From: Candidatus Eiseniibacteriota bacterium
Lineage (GTDB): Bacteria; Eisenbacteria; RBG-16-71-46
Length of the DNA: 64,000 nucleotides
Reading direction: 5' to 3'
Assembly (NCBI GenBank): GCA_041483195.1
Contig: JBGPFC010000003.1
Location: forward strand, 32,001 to 96,000
The translations under genes and the position numbers were made by a program. Below, piece by piece: positions 51,284 to 59,309 of this stretch; position 1 is the stretch's first letter, and the number at the start of each line of letters is the position of its first letter. The notes beneath the pieces were generated by a model, which worked only from the letters and a program-made list of their open reading frames with translations, had not been told where the DNA came from and searched no databases.

Positions 51284-51748
51284 CTAGAACGAAAACCCGA
51301 GCAGCCCCGGATCCGGCATGAGATCGGGACTCCAGGGGTCGGCGAGCACGTCGACCTCGCATGGCTGGGGGACGACGCTCATGGTGGCCTCCGTCACGTC
51401 CTTGATCAGCTGCGGCGCGTAAGGGCAGAACGGCGTGGTCATCATCATGCGAATCAGGGTCTTGTCCGGCTGGACGTGAATCTCGCGGATCAGGCCGAGG
51501 TCGATCACCGAGAGCGCGATCTCGGGGTCCATCACGGTCTCGAGCGCGGAGCGGATCGCCATCTCCTGCTGGCTCGGAGCCGACGAGGTGAAGGGCGCGG
51601 TCGCGCCGCCGGGAACGGGAGCGGCCGGGGCGGTCGCGCCGGTCGCGGGGCTCGCGCCGCCCGCGGATGGCTGCGGGGCGGGCTCGCCGGGAATCGGCTG
51701 CCCGGTGTGCGGGTTCAGGTGCTTCTCGCTCGGATCGCGATCGGTCAT
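51284..51748 (-). CDS. sufT: DUF59 metal-sulfur cluster assembly factor
   Basis: DPEIALSVIDLGL...TTPFCP...PWSPD; Pro/Ala-rich N-terminal extension. Confidence 0.88.
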   Translation of the reverse strand: MTDRDPSEKHLNPHTGQPIPGEPAPQPSAGGASPATGATAPAAPVPGGATAPFTSSAPSQQEMAIRSALETVMDPEIALSVIDLGLIREIHVQPDKTLIRMMMTTPFCPYAPQLIKDVTEATMSVVPQPCEVDVLADPWSPDLMPDPGLLGFSF

Positions 51749-52068
51749 GCCCAGCCCACCTTGATGTCGTCGCCTTCCACCCGGACCGCGTAGGTCGGCA
51801 CCGGAGCGGTCGCGGGAAGGCAGAGCACCGCTCCGGTCTTCACGTCGAACCGCGCGCCATGGCGCGGACACTCGATCACGTCGCCATCGAGCGGTCCCTC
51901 CGCCAGCGGACCCCCATCGTGCGTGCACACGTCGTCGATCGCGTAGTACCCGTCATCGAGATGGAAGACTGCGACCGGCTGATCGTCGATGCGGACGATC
52001 TTGCAGGTGCCCTTCGCGATCTCGCCCACCCGGGCGACCGTCACGAACGCGCCAGCGACCTCGCTCAT
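51745..52068 (-). CDS. Rieske-type [2Fe-2S] ferredoxin
   Basis: CTHDGG and CPRHGARFD. Confidence 0.93.
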   Translation of the reverse strand: MSEVAGAFVTVARVGEIAKGTCKIVRIDDQPVAVFHLDDGYYAIDDVCTHDGGPLAEGPLDGDVIECPRHGARFDVKTGAVLCLPATAPVPTYAVRVEGDDIKVGWA

Positions 52069-52478
52069 CGCTCCTCCCCCTCTTCGCCCTCGCCGGGCCA
52101 GGCGTGCAGGCCGTAGACGCCGCCCTTCAGGGTCTTGAGCGCGAGCAGCGCGCACTTGAGGCGCACCGGGCCCAGCTCGATCCCCAGCATCTCGAGCACG
52201 TCCTCGCGCGAGATCTTCTTCGCCTCCTCGAGCGGCATGCCCTCGAGCTTCTCGCACAGCATCGAGGCCGAGGCCTGGCTGATCGAGCACCCCACCCCCG
52301 AGAAACGCACCGTCTCGATCTTCCCCTGGTTGATCTTGAAGTCCATGCGCAGCCGGTCGCCGCACAGCGGGTTCGCGTCTTCGTAGCTCACGTCGGGATG
52401 ATCGAGCGTGCCGTGGTGTCGCGGGTGCTTGTAGTGGTCGAGGATGTTCTCGCGATACAGCTCGTTCCACTCGCTCAT
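52065..52478 (-). CDS. sufU: SUF-system U-type scaffold / sulfur-transfer protein
   Basis: ILDHYKHPR, NPLCGD, GCSISQASAS, RLKCA. Confidence 0.9.
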   Translation of the reverse strand: MSEWNELYRENILDHYKHPRHHGTLDHPDVSYEDANPLCGDRLRMDFKINQGKIETVRFSGVGCSISQASASMLCEKLEGMPLEEAKKISREDVLEMLGIELGPVRLKCALLALKTLKGGVYGLHAWPGEGEEGEER

Positions 52479-53743
52479 CGCGCGAACACCTTGCGCGCCT
52501 TGTGGAGCCCCGTCACCAGGGCGTCCACGTCCTCCGGGAGGTTGTAACAGTGGAACGAGGCGCGCGCCGAGGCCGGCACGCCGAGCTTCTCGTGGAGCGG
52601 CATCGCGCAATGATGGCCGGCGCGCACGCACACCCCGTCGCCGTCGAGCACGGTGGCGACGTCGTGCGGATGGATGTCGCCGAGCGTGAACGCCACCACG
52701 CCCCCGCGCTTCGCGGGCGGCGGACCGAGCAGGGCGAGGTCCGGCACCTCGCGCAGGCGCTCGAAAGCGTAGGCCGCCAGCTCGCGGTCGTGCGCGAACA
52801 CCGCGTCCATGCCGAGCGCCGTCAGATAGTCGACCGCCGCGCCGAAGCCAACCGCCTCGGCGATCGCCATGGTCCCGGCCTCGAACTTCCACGGCAGGTC
52901 GTTCCACTTCGAGCCGGTGAGCTTGACCTCGCGGATCATCTCGCCGCCGCCCAGGAACGGCGGCATCGCCTCGAGCAGCTCGCGCCGGCCCCACAGCGCG
53001 CCGATGCCGGTGGGCCCGAGCATCTTGTGGCTGGTGAACGCGACGAAGTCGGCGCCCAGCGCCTTCACGTCGACCGGGCAGTGCGGCACGCTCTGCGAGG
53101 CGTCCACCACCATCACCGCGCCCACGGCGTGCGCCTGCCTGGCGATCTCGGCGACCGGGTTCACGGTGCCGAGCACGTTGGAGATGTGCACGACCGAGAC
53201 CAGCTTCACGCGCCCGTCCGCGAGCAGGCCCGGCAGCGCTCCGAGTTCCAGCTCGCCGCCGCGCGTCACCGGGATGAAACGCAGCACGACGCCCCGCTCG
53301 TCGCCGAGGATCTGCCATGGCACGAGGTTCGAGTGGTGCTCCATCTCGGTGAGCACGATCGCGTCGCCCGCGCGCAGGTTGGACCTGCCCCAGGAGTAGG
53401 CGATCAGGTTGAGCGCCTCGGTGCTGTTGCGCGTGAAGATCAGCTCGCGCGGCGTGGCGGCGCCAACGAACGCCGCGACCCGCCGCCGCGCGTCTTCGTA
53501 GGCGGCGGTCGCCTGTTCGGCGATGCCGTAGATCCCGCGGTGGATGTTGGCGTTGAAGCTCGAGTAGTAGTGCGTCATCGCGTCGAGCACCGCGTCTGGC
53601 TTCTGCGAGGTGGCCGCGCTGTCGAGGTAGACGAGACGCTTCGCGCGCGGCTCGCGGAAGATCGGGAATTGCTCGCGCACCGCGCGAGGGTCGAACGTTC
53701 GGACGCTCGCCGGAGCGGCTCCCGCCGGATGGAAGTGCCTCAC
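52475..53743 (-). CDS. sufS: Class II cysteine desulfurase
   Basis: YLDSAATSQKP, MEHHSN, SHKMLGPTG, RAGHHCA. Confidence 0.95.
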   Translation of the reverse strand: MRHFHPAGAAPASVRTFDPRAVREQFPIFREPRAKRLVYLDSAATSQKPDAVLDAMTHYYSSFNANIHRGIYGIAEQATAAYEDARRRVAAFVGAATPRELIFTRNSTEALNLIAYSWGRSNLRAGDAIVLTEMEHHSNLVPWQILGDERGVVLRFIPVTRGGELELGALPGLLADGRVKLVSVVHISNVLGTVNPVAEIARQAHAVGAVMVVDASQSVPHCPVDVKALGADFVAFTSHKMLGPTGIGALWGRRELLEAMPPFLGGGEMIREVKLTGSKWNDLPWKFEAGTMAIAEAVGFGAAVDYLTALGMDAVFAHDRELAAYAFERLREVPDLALLGPPPAKRGGVVAFTLGDIHPHDVATVLDGDGVCVRAGHHCAMPLHEKLGVPASARASFHCYNLPEDVDALVTGLHKARKVFAR

Positions 53744-53747
53744 GGGT

Positions 53748-55091
53748 TCACCCGATCTTGCGCTGAATGACCTGCCGCAGTTGCTCGCGCACGCTCTCCA
53801 GCGGAATGCGGTCGAGCACCGGGACGAAGAAGCCCTCGACGATCAGTCGCTGCGCCTCGAGCCGCGGCAGGCCGCGCGACATGAGATAGTACATCTGCTC
53901 GTCGTCCACGTGCCCGATGGTCGCGCCGTGCGTGCAGCGCACGTCGTTCGCGAGGATCTCGAGGCCCGGAATGCTGTCGGCGCGCGCCTGGTCGGAGAGC
54001 AGCAGGTTGCGGTTCGCCTGATAGGCATCGGTGCGCTGAGCGCCCTCGCTCACCTGGATCAGCCCCTGGTACACGCTGCGCGCACGGTCCTTGAGACAGC
54101 CCTTGATGAGCAGGTCGCTGGTGGTGTGGTCCACGAGATGGCGCTGCAGCGTGTGCAGGTGAAAGTGCTGCCGCGCGTCGCCGAACATGAACCCGTGCAC
54201 GTACGCCGCCGCGCCCTGGCCGGCGAGATCGAAGTACGAATTGGTCTTGGTCATGCGGCTGCCGAGGATGGTCTGGATCCACTGCAGCTCGCTGTCGCGG
54301 CCGACTCGCGCGCGCTGGTTGCCGTAGTGGTACACGTTGCGGCCCCAGTCCTGAAGCGTGCCGAACACCAGCTTCGAGCCGTCCCCCACGAACACCTCGG
54401 TGCCGCCGCAGTGCATCGAGACGCCCTCGGCCGCCTCGCTCAGCTGCTCCTCGATGACGGTGGCCTTCGCGTCGCGGCCCAGCACCACGAGCGTGCGCGG
54501 CGCCGCGAACTTCGAGGCGCCGTCGAGCCAGTGGAGCAGCCGGATCGGCACCGCGGCCTCGACGCCGTCCGGCACGTACACGAACGCGCCACCCGAGCGC
54601 AGCGCGGCGCCCACCGCGACGTACCAGTCGTAATCGGGGGCCAGCAGCGCGCCGAACGTTTCGCGCAGCAGGTCGCCGTGCTCGCGCAGCGCGCGATCGA
54701 GCGAGCACACCACGACGCCCTGCTGATCGAGCGCGGGGTGGGAGCGCTCCATGACCGCTTCGCCGTTGCGCTGCACGACGAGCCCGAACTGTCCGGCGTC
54801 GATCGCGAGGCACGCGCGCAGCTCCGCGGGGAGGTCTTCGAGGCGCTGGGCGTGCGCGGTCCCGGCGAACGGATCGAGCCCGGGGAGCGCGGCCTCGAGC
54901 GAACGGAAATCGGTGCGGCGCCACAGCTCGTCCTCGCGGCTCGGGAACGCCAGCGAGCGTGCGATCTCGGCGGCCTCGCGCCGGCGCGCGAGCGCCCACT
55001 CGGGCTCGCGGCGCTCGGTGGCGCGGGCGATCGCGCGCGCCGCCCACTCCGCGTCGAAACCGGTCGCGGGGCCGATGGAGGTCGTCGTCAT
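53748..55091 (-). CDS. sufD: Fe-S assembly protein SufD
   Basis: [45 protein letters not shown]. Confidence 0.93.
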
Positions 55092-56497
55092 CCGACCGAG
55101 CCCTCCATCTGGAGCTGGATCAGGCGGTTCATCTCGACGGCGTATTCCATCGGCAATTCCTTCACGATCGGCTCGATGAAGCCCGAGACGATCATCGCCG
55201 CCGCCTCTTCCTTGGGGATGCCGCGGCTCTGGAGATAGAACAGCTGCTCGTCGCCGATCTTCGAGACCGTCGCCTCGTGGCCGATCGAGACCTTGTCCTC
55301 CTCGATCTCCATGTAGGGATAGGTGTCGGAGCGCGAATCCTCGTCGAGCAGCAGCGCGTCGCAGTTCACCGTGCTGCGGCAGTTGGTCGCGCCCTTCTGC
55401 ACCTTGACCAGCCCGCGGTAGCCGGCGCGCCCGCCGTCCTTGCTGATGGACTTCGAGATGATCTTGCTCGTGGTGTTGGGCGCGCAGTGCACCACCTTGC
55501 CGCCCGCGTCCTGGTGCTGTCCCTTGCCGGCGAACGCGATCGAGAGGATCTCGCCGTGCGCGCCCGGCTCCATCATGTACACGCTCGGGTACTTCATCGT
55601 GAGCTTGGATCCCAGGTTGCCGTCCACCCACTCCATGGTCGCGTCGCGGTAGGCGAGCGCGCGCTTGGTGACCAGGTTGTAAACGTTGTTCGACCAGTTC
55701 TGGATGGTGGTGTAGCGGCAGCGCGCGCCGGGCTTCACGATGATCTCGACCACCGCCGAATGGAGCGAGTCGCTGGTGAAAATGGGCGCGGTACAGCCCT
55801 CGACATAATGCACGAACGCGCCTTCGTCCACGATGATCAGCGTGCGCTCGAACTGGCCCATGTCGCGCGTGTTGATGCGGAAGTAGGCCTGGAGCGGCAC
55901 GTCCACGTGGACGCCCTTCGGCACGTAGATGAACGAGCCGCCCGACCACACCGCCGAGTTGAGCGCAGCGAACTTGTTGTCGGCGGGCGGAATCACCGTT
56001 GCGAAGTATTCCTTGAAGAGCGCCTCGTGATCGCGCAACGCGTGATCGGCCGACAGGAAGATGACGCCGAGCTTCTCGAGGTGCTCTTTGATCTTGTGAT
56101 AGACCACCTCGGAGTCGTACTGCGCGCCAACGCCGGCGAGGAACTTCTGCTCGGCCTCTGGAATGCCGAGCTTGTTGAAGGTGCGCTTCATGTCGGCGGG
56201 CACGTCCTCCCAGGACTTCACTTCAGCGGAGGTGGGCTTCACGTAATAGAAGATGTTCTGGAAATCGATCTGCGACAGATCGCCGCCCCAGCCGGGCAGG
56301 GGCTTCTTCCAGAAGGTCTCGAGCGACTTGAGGCGGAACTCCCGCATCCACTGCGGCTCGCCCTTCAGGTCGCAGATCTGGTTGATGATCTCGGGATCGA
56401 GGCCGCGGCGGGACTTGAACACCGACTGCTCCTCGTCGTGGAAGCCGTACTTCTCAGCGTAGCCCTGGCGGAGGTCGAGATTCGGAGCGGTGCTCAT
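55088..56497 (-). CDS. sufB: Fe-S assembly protein SufB
   Basis: [43 protein letters not shown]. Confidence 0.96.
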
Positions 56498-57297
56498 GAC
56501 GCCTCCACTTCCTTGCCGTCCTTCACCCAGTCGTAGCCGCGGCTCTCGAGCTGATGCGCGAGGTCGGCCCCGCCCGACAGCTGGATGCGCCCGTCCACCA
56601 TGACGTGCACGAAGTGCGGGTGGACATAATTCAGGATCCGCTGGTAGTGCGTGATGATCAGCACCCCCATCCCGGGTCCGGCGAGCGCGTTCACGCCCTC
56701 CGACACGATGCGCAGCGCGTCGATGTCGAGGCCGGAGTCGGTCTCGTCCATGATCGCGATCTCGGGCTTGAGCAGCGCCATCTGGAGGATCTCGGCGCGC
56801 TTCTTCTCGCCCCCCGAGAAACCGTCGTTGAGATAGCGCCCCGCGAAGCTCGGGTCCATGTGGAGCAGCGCCATCTTCTCGGTGAGCAGCGCGCGGAATT
56901 CCTTCGGGGCGATGCCGCGCCGGGTCGGCATCGCGCCGTCGCCGTTGGTGTCGGGCGGCGCGAGCCGCGCGTTGAGGGCGGTGCGCAGGAAATTGGCCAT
57001 CGTGACGCCGGGGATCGCGACCGGGTACTGGAACGCCATGAAGAGCCCGGCGCGCGAGCGCTCGTCGGCTTCCATCTCGAGCACGCTCTGGCCGCGGAAC
57101 AGGATGTCTCCGCCCGTCACCTCGTAGCGCGGATGGCCCATCAGGGTGTTCGCGAACGTGCTCTTGCCCGAGCCGTTCGGCCCCATCAGGGCGTGGATCT
57201 CGCCCTTGCGGACCTCGAGGCTCAGGCCCTTCAGGATTTCCTTGCCCTCCACCGCGACGCGGAGGTCCTTGACGATCAGTTCAGGCGTCTGACTCAT
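56494..57297 (-). CDS. sufC: Fe-S assembly ATPase SufC
   Basis: [41 protein letters not shown]. Confidence 0.96.
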
Positions 57298-57393
57298 GTC
57301 GGGCTTTCCTGGCCGCCGCGCGCGGCGGGACGTGGAGCGGGAAGCGCCGCCTCACCGACGGCCGCCCCGCGACTCCTTGAGAGCTGCGCGAAC

Positions 57394-57762
57394 CTACGCT
57401 GTGAAGCTTTCGCCGCAGGCGCAGCTGTGACGCACGTTCGGATTGTTGAACTTGAACCCCGAGCCCATCAGGCCCTCGACGTAGTCCACGACGGTGCCGG
57501 CGAGCAGCAACCCGCTCTTGGTGTCGACCACCAGCTTCACGCCGTGGCTCTCGATCAGATCGTCGCCCGCCTCCGCCGCCTCGCAGAACTCCATGAAGTA
57601 CGAATTGCCGGAGCATCCGCCGCCGCGCACGCCGATGCGCAGGCACTGCTCCGACGTCCCGCGCTGCGCGATCAGCTCCTGCACCTTCAGCGACGCTCCC
57701 GGGGTCAGCGAAACCGGGCCCTTCACGGCCGGGCTGTTGATACCGATGATTGGAAGATCCAT
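57394..57762 (-). CDS. sufA: A-type Fe-S carrier (HesB/IscA/SufA family)
   Basis: GGGCSG and NPN...CACGESF. Confidence 0.9.
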   Translation of the reverse strand: MDLPIIGINSPAVKGPVSLTPGASLKVQELIAQRGTSEQCLRIGVRGGGCSGNSYFMEFCEAAEAGDDLIESHGVKLVVDTKSGLLLAGTVVDYVEGLMGSGFKFNNPNVRHSCACGESFTA

Positions 57763-57767
57763 GGTCC

Positions 57768-58322
57768 TCACTCGATCTCTTCGACTCGAACGAATCCCGC
57801 ACGCGGCGCTCTGCGCGCCGAGCCGGGGGCTGACGTGATTCCGGCGACCAGCGCCGGCTCATTCCGCATGCCGTGATCCTGGCTGCATCCCACGCACACC
57901 TTCACATGCGACGGCGTCGCGCACTCGCGGCAGGTCTCGAGATAGGCGAGTCCGCGCTCGAGCTCCCGCTCGAGGTCTCCAAAGCGCCTGACCGACTCGC
58001 GGGTGTCGGCGAGCTTGCGCACGAACAGCGTGCGCAGGCGGTCCATCGCGTCCGGACCCAGTCCCGCGCTCCACCACGACTGGAGCACCTCGCGCATCTC
58101 GTGGAGCGAGAATCCGAGTCCGTGGAGCAGATCGATCCAGCGCACGCGCTCGACCGCGCCCGGATCGTAGAGGCGGAATCCGCCGCTGGTTCGGGTCGCG
58201 GGCTTCAGCAGGCCGAGCTCTTCGTACAGGTGGATCGCGCGGACCGTCTTGCCGGTCTGGCGCGCGAGATCACCGATGCGAAGGAGCTGGCTGCGATCGC
58301 TTGTCGAATTGGTCTGGATCAT
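57768..58322 (-). CDS. MerR-family transcriptional regulator with C-terminal CX2CX8CX2C motif
   Basis: RIGDLARQTGKTVRAIHLYEELGLL...RTSGGFRLY...LGFSLHEM wHTH, coiled coil, CRECATPSHVKVCVGC. Confidence 0.92.
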   Translation of the reverse strand: MIQTNSTSDRSQLLRIGDLARQTGKTVRAIHLYEELGLLKPATRTSGGFRLYDPGAVERVRWIDLLHGLGFSLHEMREVLQSWWSAGLGPDAMDRLRTLFVRKLADTRESVRRFGDLERELERGLAYLETCRECATPSHVKVCVGCSQDHGMRNEPALVAGITSAPGSARRAPRAGFVRVEEIE

Positions 58323-58344
58323 ACCCTTACGTGCGCGTTAGAGT
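58323..58344. promoter_or_regulatory. Imperfect palindrome, candidate MerR-family operator
   Basis: ACCCTTACG-TGCG-CGTTAGAGT (7 of 9 arm positions complementary), abutting the merR ATG. Confidence 0.6.
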
Positions 58345-58352
58345 GCGCCCAG

Positions 58353-58381
58353 AAGCTAATGGATCCACGCGATTTCGTCAA
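58353..58381 (-). promoter_or_regulatory. Sigma70 promoter of the merR-suf operon
   Basis: Minus strand TTGACG-17 nt-TAGCTT. Confidence 0.65.
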
Positions 58382-58432
58382 GATTCCTGGACCGCAGGAT
58401 TTTGGGGCGGTTGGCCCAGCCCGCGGCCGGGT

Positions 58433-59281
58433 TCAGACCCCGTCGCCCTTGAAATCGGACTCTCCCGTGACCTCGTTCGGGGGGTGGACCGGGACCTCCC
58501 CCGCCAGCTCATCGACGATGGTTTCCGGGGTACGGTCCGGCACCCTCCGATAGATCACGCCCAGCTTGAAGCGGTCGCCGTCCGCCGCCTCGAGCGCACG
58601 CGCGTAGTCGGTGGGGTCCCAGCTCTCGGGCAGCAGCTCGCAGCGCCGGTACACCTGCTCCGCGTACTCCGGCTTCTGATAGGTCACGCAGCCCGCGAGC
58701 ACGTGCAGGAACGCGAAGCCCGGGTACTCAATCGCCTCGCGGAACATCTTTCGCAGGTGCGGGAGGTTCCCGGCGTGGGTTCGCGCGACGAACCCGCAGC
58801 CCGACGACAGCACCAGCAGCACCGGATTGAGCGGCTGTTCCTCCGCTCCGGCGAGGCCGCGATCGTGCTTGAACTCGGTCGCGGTGGTGGGCGACGCCTG
58901 TCCCTTGGTGAGCCCGTAGATGCCGTTGTCGAGCACCGCGTACGTGATCGGCACGTTGCGCCGGATCGCGTGCGGGATGTGACCGAGCCCGATGCTGAAG
59001 CCGTCGCCGTCGCCGCCCACCACGACGGTGGTGATCTCGGGGCGCGCGACCTTGAGCCCGGTCGCGATCGGCAGGGCGCGGCCGTGAATGGAATTGAAGG
59101 CGTACGACCGGGTGTAACCCGGCAGCCGGCTCGAGCACCCGATGCCCGAGATCACCGCCAGCTTCTCGGGCGCGATCGCGAGGTCGCTGAGGGCCTGCGT
59201 CAGGCCCTTGAGCACGCCGTAGTCTCCGCACCCGGTGCACCACACCGGCTCGAGATCGGAGCGATAGTCCTTCGGTTTCAC
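58433..59281 (-). CDS. korB: 2-oxoacid:ferredoxin oxidoreductase beta subunit
   Basis: WCTGCGD, SGIGCSS, HGRALP, GDGDG, DNGIYGLTKGQASPT; GGAGGAGG RBS, GTG start. Confidence 0.93.
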   Translation of the reverse strand: MKPKDYRSDLEPVWCTGCGDYGVLKGLTQALSDLAIAPEKLAVISGIGCSSRLPGYTRSYAFNSIHGRALPIATGLKVARPEITTVVVGGDGDGFSIGLGHIPHAIRRNVPITYAVLDNGIYGLTKGQASPTTATEFKHDRGLAGAEEQPLNPVLLVLSSGCGFVARTHAGNLPHLRKMFREAIEYPGFAFLHVLAGCVTYQKPEYAEQVYRRCELLPESWDPTDYARALEAADGDRFKLGVIYRRVPDRTPETIVDELAGEVPVHPPNEVTGESDFKGDGV

Positions 59282-59309
59282 GGTCTCACCTCCTCCAGGG
59301 AACTCGCGG

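What the first reader, a model, noticed from the sequence alone, without database searches (positions are those of the whole stretch)
57768..58381. MerR regulator with a CX2CX8CX2C tail heads the SUF operon, with a repressor-positioned operator
Seen: merR is the first gene of the suf run (5 bp to the sufA ATG) and ends in CRECATPSHVKVCVGCSQDH. Its promoter has an optimal 17 bp spacer (TTGACG-N17-TAGCTT). A MerR-style palindrome, ACCCTTACG-N4-CGTTAGAGT, lies downstream of the -10 box and abuts the start codon. Known: classical MerR activators bind inside 19-20 bp spacers; SoxR uses a different Cys pattern (CX2CXCX5C); characterised suf regulators are SufR, IscR/Rrf2, Fur and OxyR. Inference: a distinct Fe-S- or metal-sensing MerR-family autorepressor providing feedback control of Fe-S biogenesis. 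This is my best candidate for an undescribed regulatory system here.
Basis: partly seen in the sequence, partly recalled or inferred. Interest (0 to 1): 0.75.

Follow-up and report, generated by a model that had tools for sequence, protein, structure and literature searches.

The report
MerR-type regulator heading Fe-S assembly operon
A MerR-family DNA-binding protein with four invariant cysteines sits in front of the iron-sulfur cluster assembly genes, next to a strongly conserved binding site over its own promoter, and appears to be an undescribed kind of feedback regulator for this essential pathway.

Summary
Window 57768-58322 (-) encodes a 184-aa MerR-family protein. It is the first gene of a merR-sufA-sufC-sufB-sufD-sufS-sufU-Rieske-DUF59 operon.

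- **Cys motif:** CX2C-X8-CX2C sits where MerR proteins have their metal-binding loop. It occurs in 120/120, 119/120 and 120/120 relatives from three clades.
- **Gene linkage:** in 80 related genome loci, merR is directly followed by suf genes in 77. Two contigs end there. One locus has iscS-iscU-iscA-hscB-hscA instead.
- **Binding site:** the 22-bp dyad A[CA]TCTAAC[GC]-N4-CGTAAGGGT lies upstream of merR in 80/80 cases.
- **Promoter geometry:** in 53/80 a TTG[AC]Cn-N17/18-TAnnTT promoter ends exactly 8 nt before the dyad, placing it at about +1..+22, a repressor position. Thirteen deeper-branching loci instead hold the dyad inside an 18-bp spacer, as in classical MerR promoters.

The protein falls below every NCBIfam equivalog cut-off, including CueR, ZntR and SoxR. 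Six literature searches found no description of it.

Best reading: a cofactor-sensing, probably Fe-S-sensing, autoregulator of Fe-S biogenesis in Eisenbacteria and Myxococcota. The cofactor and the sign of regulation are inferred, not shown. I rate it a new variant of a known kind.

The parts
57768..58322 (-). merR-family regulator gene, 184 aa (P0001), first gene of the operon
   Evidence: ORF. Pfam MerR_1 1.5e-13, MerR 1e-11, MerR-DNA-bind 2.1e-05. Below all NCBIfam equivalog cut-offs.
58077..58280 (-). winged helix-turn-helix DNA-binding domain (residues 15-82)
   Evidence: Pfam MerR_1 match covers residues 15-82. AF2 model has helices 16-23, 27-35, 55-68 and 73-85 with pLDDT 94-98. Foldseek top hits are MerR-family structures.
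57927..58058 (-). long dimerisation (coiled-coil) helix, residues 89-132
   Evidence: AF2 model, helix H89-132.
57885..57932 (-). CX2C-X8-CX2C motif (C131, C134, C143, C146) at the end of the long helix, the position of the MerR metal-binding loop
   Evidence: Translation. Invariant in A1, A2 and A3. Present in 120/120, 119/120 and 120/120 relatives of three clades.
57840..57860 (-). conserved EPxLVAG segment (residues 155-161) after the Cys motif; short helix 157-163
   Evidence: E155, P156, L158 and G161 invariant in A1. P156 is at least 90% conserved in A2. Helix 157-163 in the AF2 model.
58323..58344 (-). 22-bp dyad operator ACTCTAACG-CGCA-CGTAAGGGT, abutting the ATG
   Evidence: Conserved in 80/80. 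No RNA covariation.
58353..58358 (-). -10 hexamer TAGCTT
   Evidence: A TAnnTT hexamer lies exactly 8 nt before the dyad in 53/80.
58376..58381 (-). -35 hexamer TTGACG, 17 nt upstream of the -10
   Evidence: TTG[AC]Cn with a 17- or 18-nt spacer is conserved in 53/80.
57394..57762 (-). sufA / A-type Fe-S carrier; its ATG lies 5 nt after the merR stop
   Evidence: Pfam Fe-S_biosyn 4.7e-17. TIGR00049 117 bits against a cut-off of 58.8.
56494..57297 (-). sufC (ABC ATPase)
   Evidence: Pfam ABC_tran. Its position between sufA and sufB is conserved in related loci.
55088..56497 (-). sufB
   Evidence: Pfam SUFBD_core 2.3e-90.
53748..55091 (-). sufD
   Evidence: TIGR01981 278.5 bits against a cut-off of 222. 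ATG at 55091 overlaps the sufB stop.
52475..53743 (-). sufS cysteine desulfurase
   Evidence: Pfam Aminotran_5 4.7e-143.
52065..52478 (-). sufU-like scaffold/sulfur acceptor (NifU_N)
   Evidence: Pfam NifU_N 1.1e-29 in this frame. ATG at 52478.
51745..52068 (-). Rieske [2Fe-2S] protein gene
   Evidence: Pfam Rieske 9.8e-20. ATG at 52068.
51284..51748 (-). DUF59 / FeS_assembly_P (SufT-like) gene, last gene with a 4-nt overlap
   Evidence: Pfam FeS_assembly_P 9.8e-15. ATG at 51748.

Best explanation
The gene encodes a dimeric MerR-family transcription factor that is the dedicated, autoregulated controller of the Fe-S cluster assembly operon.

Proposed DNA binding: the winged HTH binds the 22-bp dyad A[CA]TCTAAC[GC]-N4-CGTAAGGGT. 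In the window this dyad lies 8 nt after the -10 hexamer of a -35/17-bp/-10 promoter. It therefore covers about +1 to +22 and abuts the merR start codon.

Proposed action: bound protein blocks RNA polymerase and represses merR-sufACBDSU-Rieske-DUF59.

Proposed sensing: the four invariant cysteines (CX2C-X8-CX2C) at the end of the dimerisation helix hold a cofactor, most likely an Fe-S cluster supplied by the SUF machinery itself. When Fe-S supply is sufficient, the holo-protein binds and represses. When clusters are scarce or destroyed (iron limitation, oxidants), the apo or damaged protein releases the operator and the operon is induced. This is the same feedback logic as IscR, RisR and SufR.

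Shown here: family membership, operon structure, invariance of the Cys motif, and conservation of the operator and its position relative to the promoter.

Inferred: that the protein binds this dyad, that binding represses, that the cofactor is an Fe-S cluster, and that the holo form is the DNA-binding form.

The confidence given is for the whole chain. That it is the dedicated suf regulator acting at this dyad I put at about 0.85.
For: **Family and fold.** Pfam gives MerR_1, MerR and MerR-DNA-bind. The AF2 model has mean pLDDT 89.1, with a wHTH and a 44-residue helix. Foldseek top hits are all MerR-family structures.

**Operon.** merR is followed after 5 nt by sufA, then sufC, B, D, S, U, Rieske and DUF59. 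From sufB onward the genes overlap by 4 nt.

**Linkage to Fe-S biogenesis.**
- 77 of 80 related loci have sufA or sufC directly downstream of merR.
- L051 and L072 are cut off by the contig end.
- L077 has iscS-iscU-iscA-hscB-hscA downstream of a homologue (P0389) that carries the same Cys motif and the same dyad.

**Cysteines.** C131, C134, C143 and C146 are four of only seven invariant columns among 63 representatives that share 31-68% identity with the query. The motif is present in 120/120, 119/120 and 120/120 hits of three separate clade searches.

**Operator.** The dyad is present in 80/80 upstream regions, and the right arm is almost invariant. It is essentially absent elsewhere in 820 kb.

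**Promoter geometry.** TTG[AC]Cn-N17/18-TAnnTT ends exactly 8 nt before the dyad in 53/80, while the spacer and gap sequences vary.

**Not an RNA element.** MFE is -6.4 kcal/mol with z -0.21. Only 1 of 675 cells is compensatory, and covariation is not above the shuffles. There is no Rfam match at the site.

**Established knowledge (recalled).** Regulators that head Fe-S operons and repress in the holo form include IscR and the actinobacterial and cyanobacterial SufR. RisR is described that way in the abstract of PMC9973013.
Against: - No tool here shows DNA binding, repression or any cofactor.
- MerR-family metal sensors typically stay bound in both states and activate by distorting DNA, rather than dissociating.
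- In 13 deeper-branching loci (L064-66, 68, 70-76, 78, 80) the upstream 17-bp promoter is absent. There the dyad sits between a -35-like T[AG]GA[CA][CT] and a -10-like TA[TC]GAT, 18 bp apart, followed by a 20-38-nt leader. That geometry resembles classical MerR promoters and allows an activator mode in those organisms.
- Two CXXC pairs could equally bind Zn or Fe(II), or act as a thiol-disulfide switch.
- The -10 hexamer is weak by the E. coli consensus, and the simple scan calls no promoter. The transcription start is inferred, not mapped.
- Gene context outside Eisenbacteria was seen for one locus only (L077).
Confidence: 0.55

Rival explanations
1. Classical MerR-type (SoxR-like) activator. 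The protein stays on the dyad in all states. One state, for example an oxidised or damaged cluster, untwists the DNA and switches suf transcription on. The other state holds the promoter closed.
For: It belongs to the MerR family, and the Cys motif sits at the metal-binding-loop position. In 13 of 80 loci the dyad starts inside a -35-like hexamer and ends at a -10-like TA[TC]GAT with an 18-bp spacer. Recalled: this is how the dyads of metal-sensing MerR promoters are placed. SoxR, the one known Fe-S MerR protein, works this way (PMC11672702, passages seen).
Against: In the window and 52 other loci the conserved promoter has an optimal 17-18-bp spacer, and the dyad lies wholly downstream of the -10. 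DNA untwisting cannot realign the hexamers from there. The -35-like hexamer overlapping the dyad in the window (CGCACT) matches TTGACA at 2 of 6 positions. An 18-bp spacer is shorter than the 19-20 bp of characterised MerR promoters. Classical MerR activators are usually not the first gene of their target operon (recalled).
Confidence: 0.2
2. The same regulator and operator, but the four cysteines hold no Fe-S cluster. They bind a single metal ion (structural or sensory Zn(II), or Fe(II) as in rubredoxin-type sites) or act as a thiol-disulfide switch. The signal would then be iron level or oxidative stress directly.
For: Paired CXXC motifs are typical of Cys4 Zn/Fe sites and of redox switches (established knowledge, recalled). 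The AF2 model places the two CXXC pairs at the helix end and on a short helix at 140-143, like a knuckle pair. suf operons are commonly induced by iron limitation and oxidants (abstracts of PMC9973013 and PMC11631912).
Against: All characterised dedicated regulators that head isc or suf operons sense cluster occupancy (IscR, RisR, SufR; abstracts and passages). One family member also heads an isc operon, which fits a sensor of the pathway's product better than a stress sensor. No direct evidence favours either reading.
Confidence: 0.17
3. An ordinary heavy-metal (Cu/Zn/Cd) efflux regulator that lies next to suf by chance, as some automatic annotations suggest ('copper efflux regulator').
For: JGI names on some homologues. 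The best NCBIfam match is CueR.
Against: The CueR score is 56.4 bits against a cut-off of 147.4, and every other metal-sensor equivalog is also far below its cut-off. The Cys pattern differs from the patterns of those sensors. No efflux gene is adjacent. suf or isc linkage holds in 78 of the 78 loci that have downstream DNA.
Confidence: 0.02
4. The conserved 22-nt block is an RNA hairpin in the 5' leader that masks the ribosome-binding site, not a protein-binding DNA site.
For: In the window clade the block would be transcribed, contains AAGGG and abuts the AUG. As RNA, 78.4% of cells could pair.
Against: The fold is weak: -6.4 kcal/mol, z -0.21, with 75 of 200 shuffles folding at least as well. 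Only 1 of 675 cells shows a compensatory change, and the covariation score (0.025) is not above the shuffles (353 of 500 reach it). Variable positions simply break pairs. In the deep clade the block lies upstream of the likely -10. There is no Rfam match.
Confidence: 0.02

Closest known systems
SoxR (MerR family, [2Fe-2S] redox sensor)
   Same: It has the MerR fold, and Foldseek hits 2zhg and 2zhh are among the top matches. A Cys-rich motif follows the dimerisation helix directly. SoxR is the only Fe-S MerR protein named in the MerR section of the 2024 review, of which I saw passages.
   Different: The Cys pattern is CX2C-X8-CX2C, not SoxR's CX2CXCX5C. The TIGR01950 score is 36.0 against a cut-off of 116.9. 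A conserved 34-residue extension follows the motif. The target is the regulator's own suf operon rather than a divergent soxS. In the window the operator lies downstream of a 17-bp-spacer promoter, not inside a 19-bp spacer.
Metal-sensing MerR proteins (CueR, ZntR, CadR/PbrR, MerR)
   Same: These give the best NCBIfam and PDB sequence matches. They share the overall architecture and a dyad operator of about 22 bp.
   Different: All equivalog scores are far below their cut-offs. PDB sequence matches cover mainly the HTH region. Four Cys lie in one loop rather than two or three. The neighbouring genes are Fe-S biogenesis genes, not efflux or detoxification genes.
IscR / RisR (Rrf2 family) and SufR (cyanobacterial and actinobacterial)
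   Same: The functional logic is the same. The regulator is the first gene of an isc or suf operon, its operator overlaps its own promoter, and Cys ligands are available for a cofactor. One family member occupies the IscR position in an isc operon. RisR and SufR act as holo-repressors (abstracts; passages).
   Different: The DNA-binding fold is unrelated. Pfam finds only MerR domains. The operator sequence and the Cys motif also differ.
[quoted passage not shown]
   Same: It is a MerR-superfamily protein linked to iron homeostasis, and Fe-S assembly genes change in the mutant (PMC9478572, abstract and passages).
   Different: MliR lacks an effector-binding domain and has no cysteines. The present protein has a Cys4 loop and is encoded within the suf operon.
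Repressor-type MerR relatives (HspR, CarH/LitR, BluR; recalled, not tested here)
   Same: These are MerR-family proteins that act by occluding promoters rather than by DNA distortion. HspR appears among the weak NCBIfam matches.
   Different: They use different sensor domains and signals (chaperone, B12/light, partner protein). None is linked to Fe-S biogenesis.

Membership tests
MerR family of transcription regulators | N-terminal winged helix-turn-helix of MerR type followed by a long dimerisation helix | tested here: met
   Pfam MerR_1 51.1 bits (cut-off 21.6), MerR 44.8 (28.2), MerR-DNA-bind 25.5 (25.4). The AF2 model has a wHTH and helix 89-132. Foldseek top hits are all MerR-family structures with probability 1.00.
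MerR family, classical activator mode | Dyad operator inside an over-long (19-20 bp) spacer between -35 and -10 | tested here: not met
   In the window and 52 other loci the spacer is 17-18 bp and the dyad starts 8 nt after the -10. In 13 deep-clade loci the dyad lies in an 18-bp spacer between -35-like and -10-like hexamers.
SoxR | CX2CXCX5C cluster-binding motif; NCBIfam TIGR01950 at or above 116.9 bits | tested here: not met
   The motif is CX2C-X8-CX2C. TIGR01950 scores 36.0 bits over residues 14-83 only.
CueR / ZntR / CadR-PbrR / MerR equivalogs | Score at or above the NCBIfam equivalog cut-off | tested here: not met
   Scores against cut-offs: CueR 56.4 vs 147.4, ZntR 49.9 vs 167.95, CadR-PbrR 50.3 vs 151.45, MerR 45.9 vs 150.85.
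IscR / Rrf2 and SufR regulators of Fe-S biogenesis | Rrf2-type or SufR-type DNA-binding domain | tested here: not met
   The Pfam scan of P0001 returns only the three MerR families at E <= 0.001.
Dedicated Fe-S biogenesis regulators (functional class) | Encoded at the head of an isc or suf operon with a conserved operator at its own promoter | tested here: met
   77 of 80 loci are followed by suf and 1 by isc. The dyad is present in 80/80.
Dedicated Fe-S biogenesis regulators (functional class) | Binds an Fe-S cluster whose occupancy controls DNA binding | not testable with these tools
   The only support is the four invariant Cys. Testing needs anaerobic purification and spectroscopy.

The most novel reading that the evidence does not exclude
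This is the founding member of a second Fe-S-cluster-binding branch of the MerR family. The branch holds its cluster in a CX2C-X8-CX2C loop and has taken over the IscR/SufR role as product-sensing feedback regulator of the SUF operon (Eisenbacteria) and the ISC operon (at least one Myxococcota-like genome). The same protein-operator pair is wired in two ways. In one lineage it acts as a downstream roadblock repressor at +1..+22. In a deeper lineage it acts as an in-spacer, MerR-style switch. The family would thus record an evolutionary change of regulatory mechanism with the recognition code kept intact.
Probability: 0.4. Interest if true: 0.72.

Novelty: new variant of a known kind. Interest (0 to 1): 0.62.

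Why it matters
Fe-S cluster assembly is essential, and its control is known from only a few regulator types: the Rrf2 proteins IscR, RisR and RirA, plus SufR, Fur and OxyR. A MerR-type regulator with its own Cys4 sensor loop would add an independent solution. It is conserved across an uncultured phylum (Eisenbacteria) and in Myxococcota.

It would also extend the chemistry of the MerR metal-binding loop beyond SoxR. The two promoter geometries around one operator give a natural test of how MerR proteins switch between occlusion and DNA distortion.

On the practical side, many of these proteins are auto-annotated as 'copper efflux regulator', which is probably wrong.

Tried and rejected
1. **RNA-element reading of the dyad.** Rejected.

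2. **Known metal-sensor identity (CueR, ZntR, SoxR and others).** Rejected on NCBIfam cut-offs and Cys pattern.

3. **Simple promoter and terminator scan.** It found nothing in 57300-58700. The promoter was established by comparison instead.

4. **The repeat finder with seed 6.** It did not report the imperfect dyad.

5. **The search for related loci with the 63-sequence alignment A2.** It failed because no stretch was conserved enough. It was repeated with the 17-sequence alignment A3.

6. **The listing of cluster members for ten distant representatives.** Accessions and taxa of those clusters stayed unknown. Taxon names were taken instead and from the Atlas leads.

7. **Search for further operator sites (regulon members).**
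   - One site in the 64-kb window.
   - Two weak extra sites in the 80 loci, in L004 and L063. Only L063 was inspected.

8. **Fold comparison of the C-terminal Cys4 region.**
   - Foldseek alignments cover at most 145 columns, essentially the MerR core.
   - No separate match explains the Cys4 loop.

9. **Complex prediction.** Not used. A MerR homodimer is textbook, and the tool cannot score a ligand as the partner.

10. **Careful maximum-likelihood tree of 77 family members.** It did not finish, so only the quick tree was seen, with most deep forks unsupported. It was used only to pick queries.

11. **The 72 of 150 representatives without the Cys motif.** These were not examined one by one. 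Many are short, or matched only the N-terminal ~120 residues.
Full report
**1. What is in the sequence**

On the minus strand, 57768-58322 is a 184-codon ORF.
- Pfam assigns MerR_1 (residues 15-82, E 1.5e-13), MerR and MerR-DNA-bind.
- The stop codon is followed after 5 nt by the ATG of an A-type carrier gene, sufA (57394-57762).
- Downstream come sufC (56494-57297), sufB (55088-56497), sufD (53748-55091), sufS (52475-53743), a NifU_N/sufU gene (52065-52478), a Rieske gene (51745-52068) and a DUF59/FeS_assembly_P gene (51284-51748).
- From sufB onward each start codon overlaps the preceding stop by 4 nt.
- Upstream on the same strand is the beta subunit of a 2-oxoacid:ferredoxin oxidoreductase, ending at 58433. 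That leaves a 110-nt intergenic region.

The intergenic region reads, on the - strand: TTGACG (58381-58376), 17 nt, TAGCTT (58358-58353), 8 nt, ACTCTAACG-CGCA-CGTAAGGGT (58344-58323), ATG.

The cysteines are C131, C134, C143 and C146, giving CX2C-X8-CX2C.
- The protein does not end at the motif; 34 residues follow.
- The dyad arms match at 7 of 9 positions, and the repeat finder at seed 6 does not list it.
- The -10 matches TATAAT at only 3 of 6 positions, so a simple consensus scan calls no promoter.

**2. The protein family**

The protein scores below every NCBIfam equivalog cut-off: CueR 56.4 vs 147.4, ZntR 49.9 vs 168, CadR/PbrR 50.3 vs 151, MerR 45.9 vs 151, SoxR 36.0 vs 117. PDB sequence matches (MerR, PbrR691, MtaN, TipA, CueR, CadR) have E around 1e-9 or weaker and mostly cover the HTH.

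An AlphaFold2 model built on 63 diverse relatives has mean pLDDT 89.1. It shows:
- the winged HTH;
- a 44-residue helix (89-132) ending at C131 and C134;
- a short helix at 140-143 just before C143 and C146;
- a helix at 157-163 over the conserved EPxLVAG segment;
- a lower-confidence tail.

Foldseek against the PDB returns only MerR-family structures (3hh0, MtaN, BmrR, SoxR, HiNmlR, PbrR, CadR, CueR, MerR). Query TM-scores are 0.37-0.54 and alignments span at most 145 columns. The core is therefore a MerR fold, and the C-terminal Cys4 part has no solved counterpart. The Cys motif occupies the place of the metal-binding loop of metal-sensing MerR proteins. This last point rests on helix position in the model and on general knowledge of the family.

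**3. Relatives and the cysteines**

- A word-indexed search found 1597 proteins at E <= 0.001. The best 120 are 64-99% identical, and the named ones are 'Candidatus Eisenbacteria'.
- An exhaustive search of 50%-identity representatives found 921 at E <= 1e-10 and 68 at E <= 1e-30.
- Of the best 150 representatives, 78 carry C..C-x6-12-C..C. The other 72 were not examined individually; many are short or matched only the N-terminal part.
- In an alignment of 63 motif-bearing representatives (31-68% identical to the query), only seven columns are invariant, and four of them are the cysteines.
- In three clade-specific hit lists the motif is present in 120/120 (Eisenbacteria), 119/120 (a clade including Haliangium ochraceum and Kofleriaceae) and 120/120 (the clade of the isc-linked protein, with names such as Myxococcota, Myxococcales and some other MAG labels).
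- Atlas leads also point to Myxococcota.

**4. Gene linkage**

One scan of species-representative genomes found 485 relatives, and the best 80 were kept. Nearly all are Eisenbacteria MAGs. A few record titles name other taxa, which I did not check.

tblastn with the window's Suf proteins gave:
- sufA or sufC directly after merR in 77 of 80 loci, usually followed by sufB, sufD and sufS;
- L051 and L072 end at the contig edge right after merR;
- L077 is different.

In L077 a 166-aa homologue (P0389, 55% identical in the best segment, with CRVC-x8-CRTC) is followed by genes for a class-V aminotransferase, NifU_N, an A-type carrier, HscB and an Hsp70. That is an iscS-iscU-iscA-hscB-hscA operon. 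The family is thus tied to both Fe-S assembly systems.

**5. The operator**

I anchored upstream regions on the conserved LLR codons. The block A[CA]TCTAAC[GC]-N4-CGTAAGGGT appears in the window and in all 79 loci that have upstream DNA (L046 starts inside merR).
- Nine of 30 aligned columns are invariant and four more are at least 90% conserved.
- The arms are complementary at 4-9 of 9 positions, and perfectly so in L065 and L066.
- In 820,656 nt of window plus loci, a relaxed pattern hits 79 sources. Beyond opposite-strand self-hits, only two extra weaker sites were found, in L004 and L063.
- L002 was missed by that pattern but carries a three-mismatch copy.
- The window holds one site.

Read as RNA, the block is unconvincing:
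- MFE is -6.4 kcal/mol with z -0.21.
- One of 675 cells is compensatory, and covariation is no higher than in shuffles.
- There is no Rfam match at the site.

Sequence conservation with fixed mismatches is what a protein-recognised DNA site looks like.

**6. Promoter geometry**

In 53 of 80 cases, including the window, TTG[AC]Cn-N17/18-TAnnTT is present and its last base is exactly 8 nt before the dyad. The spacer and the 8-nt gap vary in sequence. Several of the remaining window-clade loci show near-matches by eye (listing). With a start site about 7 nt after the -10 (an inference), the dyad spans roughly +1 to +22.

An in-frame start codon abuts the dyad in 38 of 80. In most other window-clade loci it lies 1-11 nt further on. 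This is a position from which a bound protein would block RNA polymerase.

Thirteen deeper-branching loci (L064-66, 68, 70-76, 78, 80; about 50-57% identity) lack that promoter. There a -35-like T[AG]GA[CA][CT] overlaps the first three bases of the dyad, a -10-like TATGAT or TACGAT starts at its last base (an 18-bp spacer), and candidate start codons lie 20-38 nt downstream. That is the classical MerR arrangement, except for a spacer 1-2 bp shorter than in characterised cases (recalled).

**7. Mechanism**

Taken together, the protein is the dedicated, autoregulated regulator of the Fe-S assembly operon, and the dyad is its operator. I hold this with high confidence on comparative grounds.

For the window, the operator position and the strong -35 with optimal spacer argue for repression by occlusion. 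The four cysteines argue for a bound cofactor. By analogy with IscR, RisR and SufR, the most economical model is a holo-repressor that senses the pathway's own product. Holo-repression by RisR and repression by SufR were seen in abstracts and passages. These last steps are inferences.

Rivals:
- a SoxR-like activator mode, favoured by the deep-clade geometry;
- a Cys4 Zn/Fe site or thiol switch instead of a cluster;
- a mis-annotated heavy-metal regulator or an RNA element, both disfavoured.

**8. Comparison with the literature**

Six full-text searches found no MerR-family regulator of suf or isc operons.
- The MerR section of a 2024 review names SoxR as the Fe-S member, and CoaR, MliR and NimR as unconventional ones. 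I saw passages and section 3.2.3.5 of PMC11672702. Only the first 300,000 characters of that text are held.
- MliR lacks cysteines and an effector domain (PMC9478572, abstract and passages).
- Myxococcus xanthus uses the Rrf2 protein RisR. 'MerR' does not occur in PMC9973013 (abstract and term search).
- Subscription-only papers are outside the library, so prior description cannot be excluded.

**9. What stayed unchecked**

- Only 80 of 485 genome hits could be read, so context in Myxococcota rests on L077 alone.
- Model coordinates could not be analysed.
- The careful phylogeny did not finish.

**10. Verdict**

This is a new variant of a known kind: a MerR-family regulator with a new sensor motif, a new regulon and, in this lineage, a non-classical operator position.

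Noticed in passing
L010, L014, L016, L024, L026, L039, L040, L046, L052 (sufB); e.g. L046:1793-4285: sufB carries an in-frame insertion of about 1.7 kb in 9 of the 80 related loci (split tblastn hits). In L046 the 830-aa SufB ORF has a LAGLIDADG_3 domain and a weak Intein_splicing match inside SUFBD_core, so it is an intein with a homing endonuclease. The window's SufB (469 aa) has none.
   Followed up: partly
L063:1981-2003: A second operator-like dyad lies about 100 nt upstream of the main merR operator, just after the end of the upstream gene. It may be an auxiliary site. Another weak site is in L004 near 1884.
   Followed up: partly
L077:5968-10954: A family member (P0389) heads an iscS-iscU-iscA-hscB-hscA operon, in the position where IscR normally sits, followed by a Ser/Thr kinase gene. 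The record title names Enterobacterales, but near relatives are named Myxococcota. Binning was not checked.
   Followed up: partly
window 51284-56497: From sufB to the DUF59 gene, each start codon overlaps the previous stop by 4 nt, which suggests translational coupling. The operon also includes a small Rieske [2Fe-2S] protein gene between sufU and DUF59.
   Followed up: partly
window 58433-63722: The genes upstream on the same strand encode Fe-S-dependent redox enzymes: 2-oxoacid:ferredoxin oxidoreductase subunits (TPP_enzyme_C/PFO_beta_C, POR_N/POR), a short-chain dehydrogenase and an Rnf/Nqr membrane subunit. The ORFs 59310-60416 and 60113-61891 overlap as listed, so their true starts need checking.
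   Followed up: no
L012, L016, L026, L039, L042, L044: In these six loci no sufA homologue is detected, and sufC follows merR directly. The A-type carrier is therefore an optional member of the operon.
   Followed up: no
L017, L030, L035, L037, L050, L069 operators: Where the left arm ends in C and the spacer is CTTA, TTTA or CATA, a second overlapping dyad without a spacer (ACCCTTAC/GTAAGGGT type) appears 4 nt out of register. Whether both registers are used is unknown.
   Followed up: no
homologues: Many family members carry the automatic name 'MerR family copper efflux transcriptional regulator'. The scores and gene context suggest this name is wrong.
   Followed up: partly
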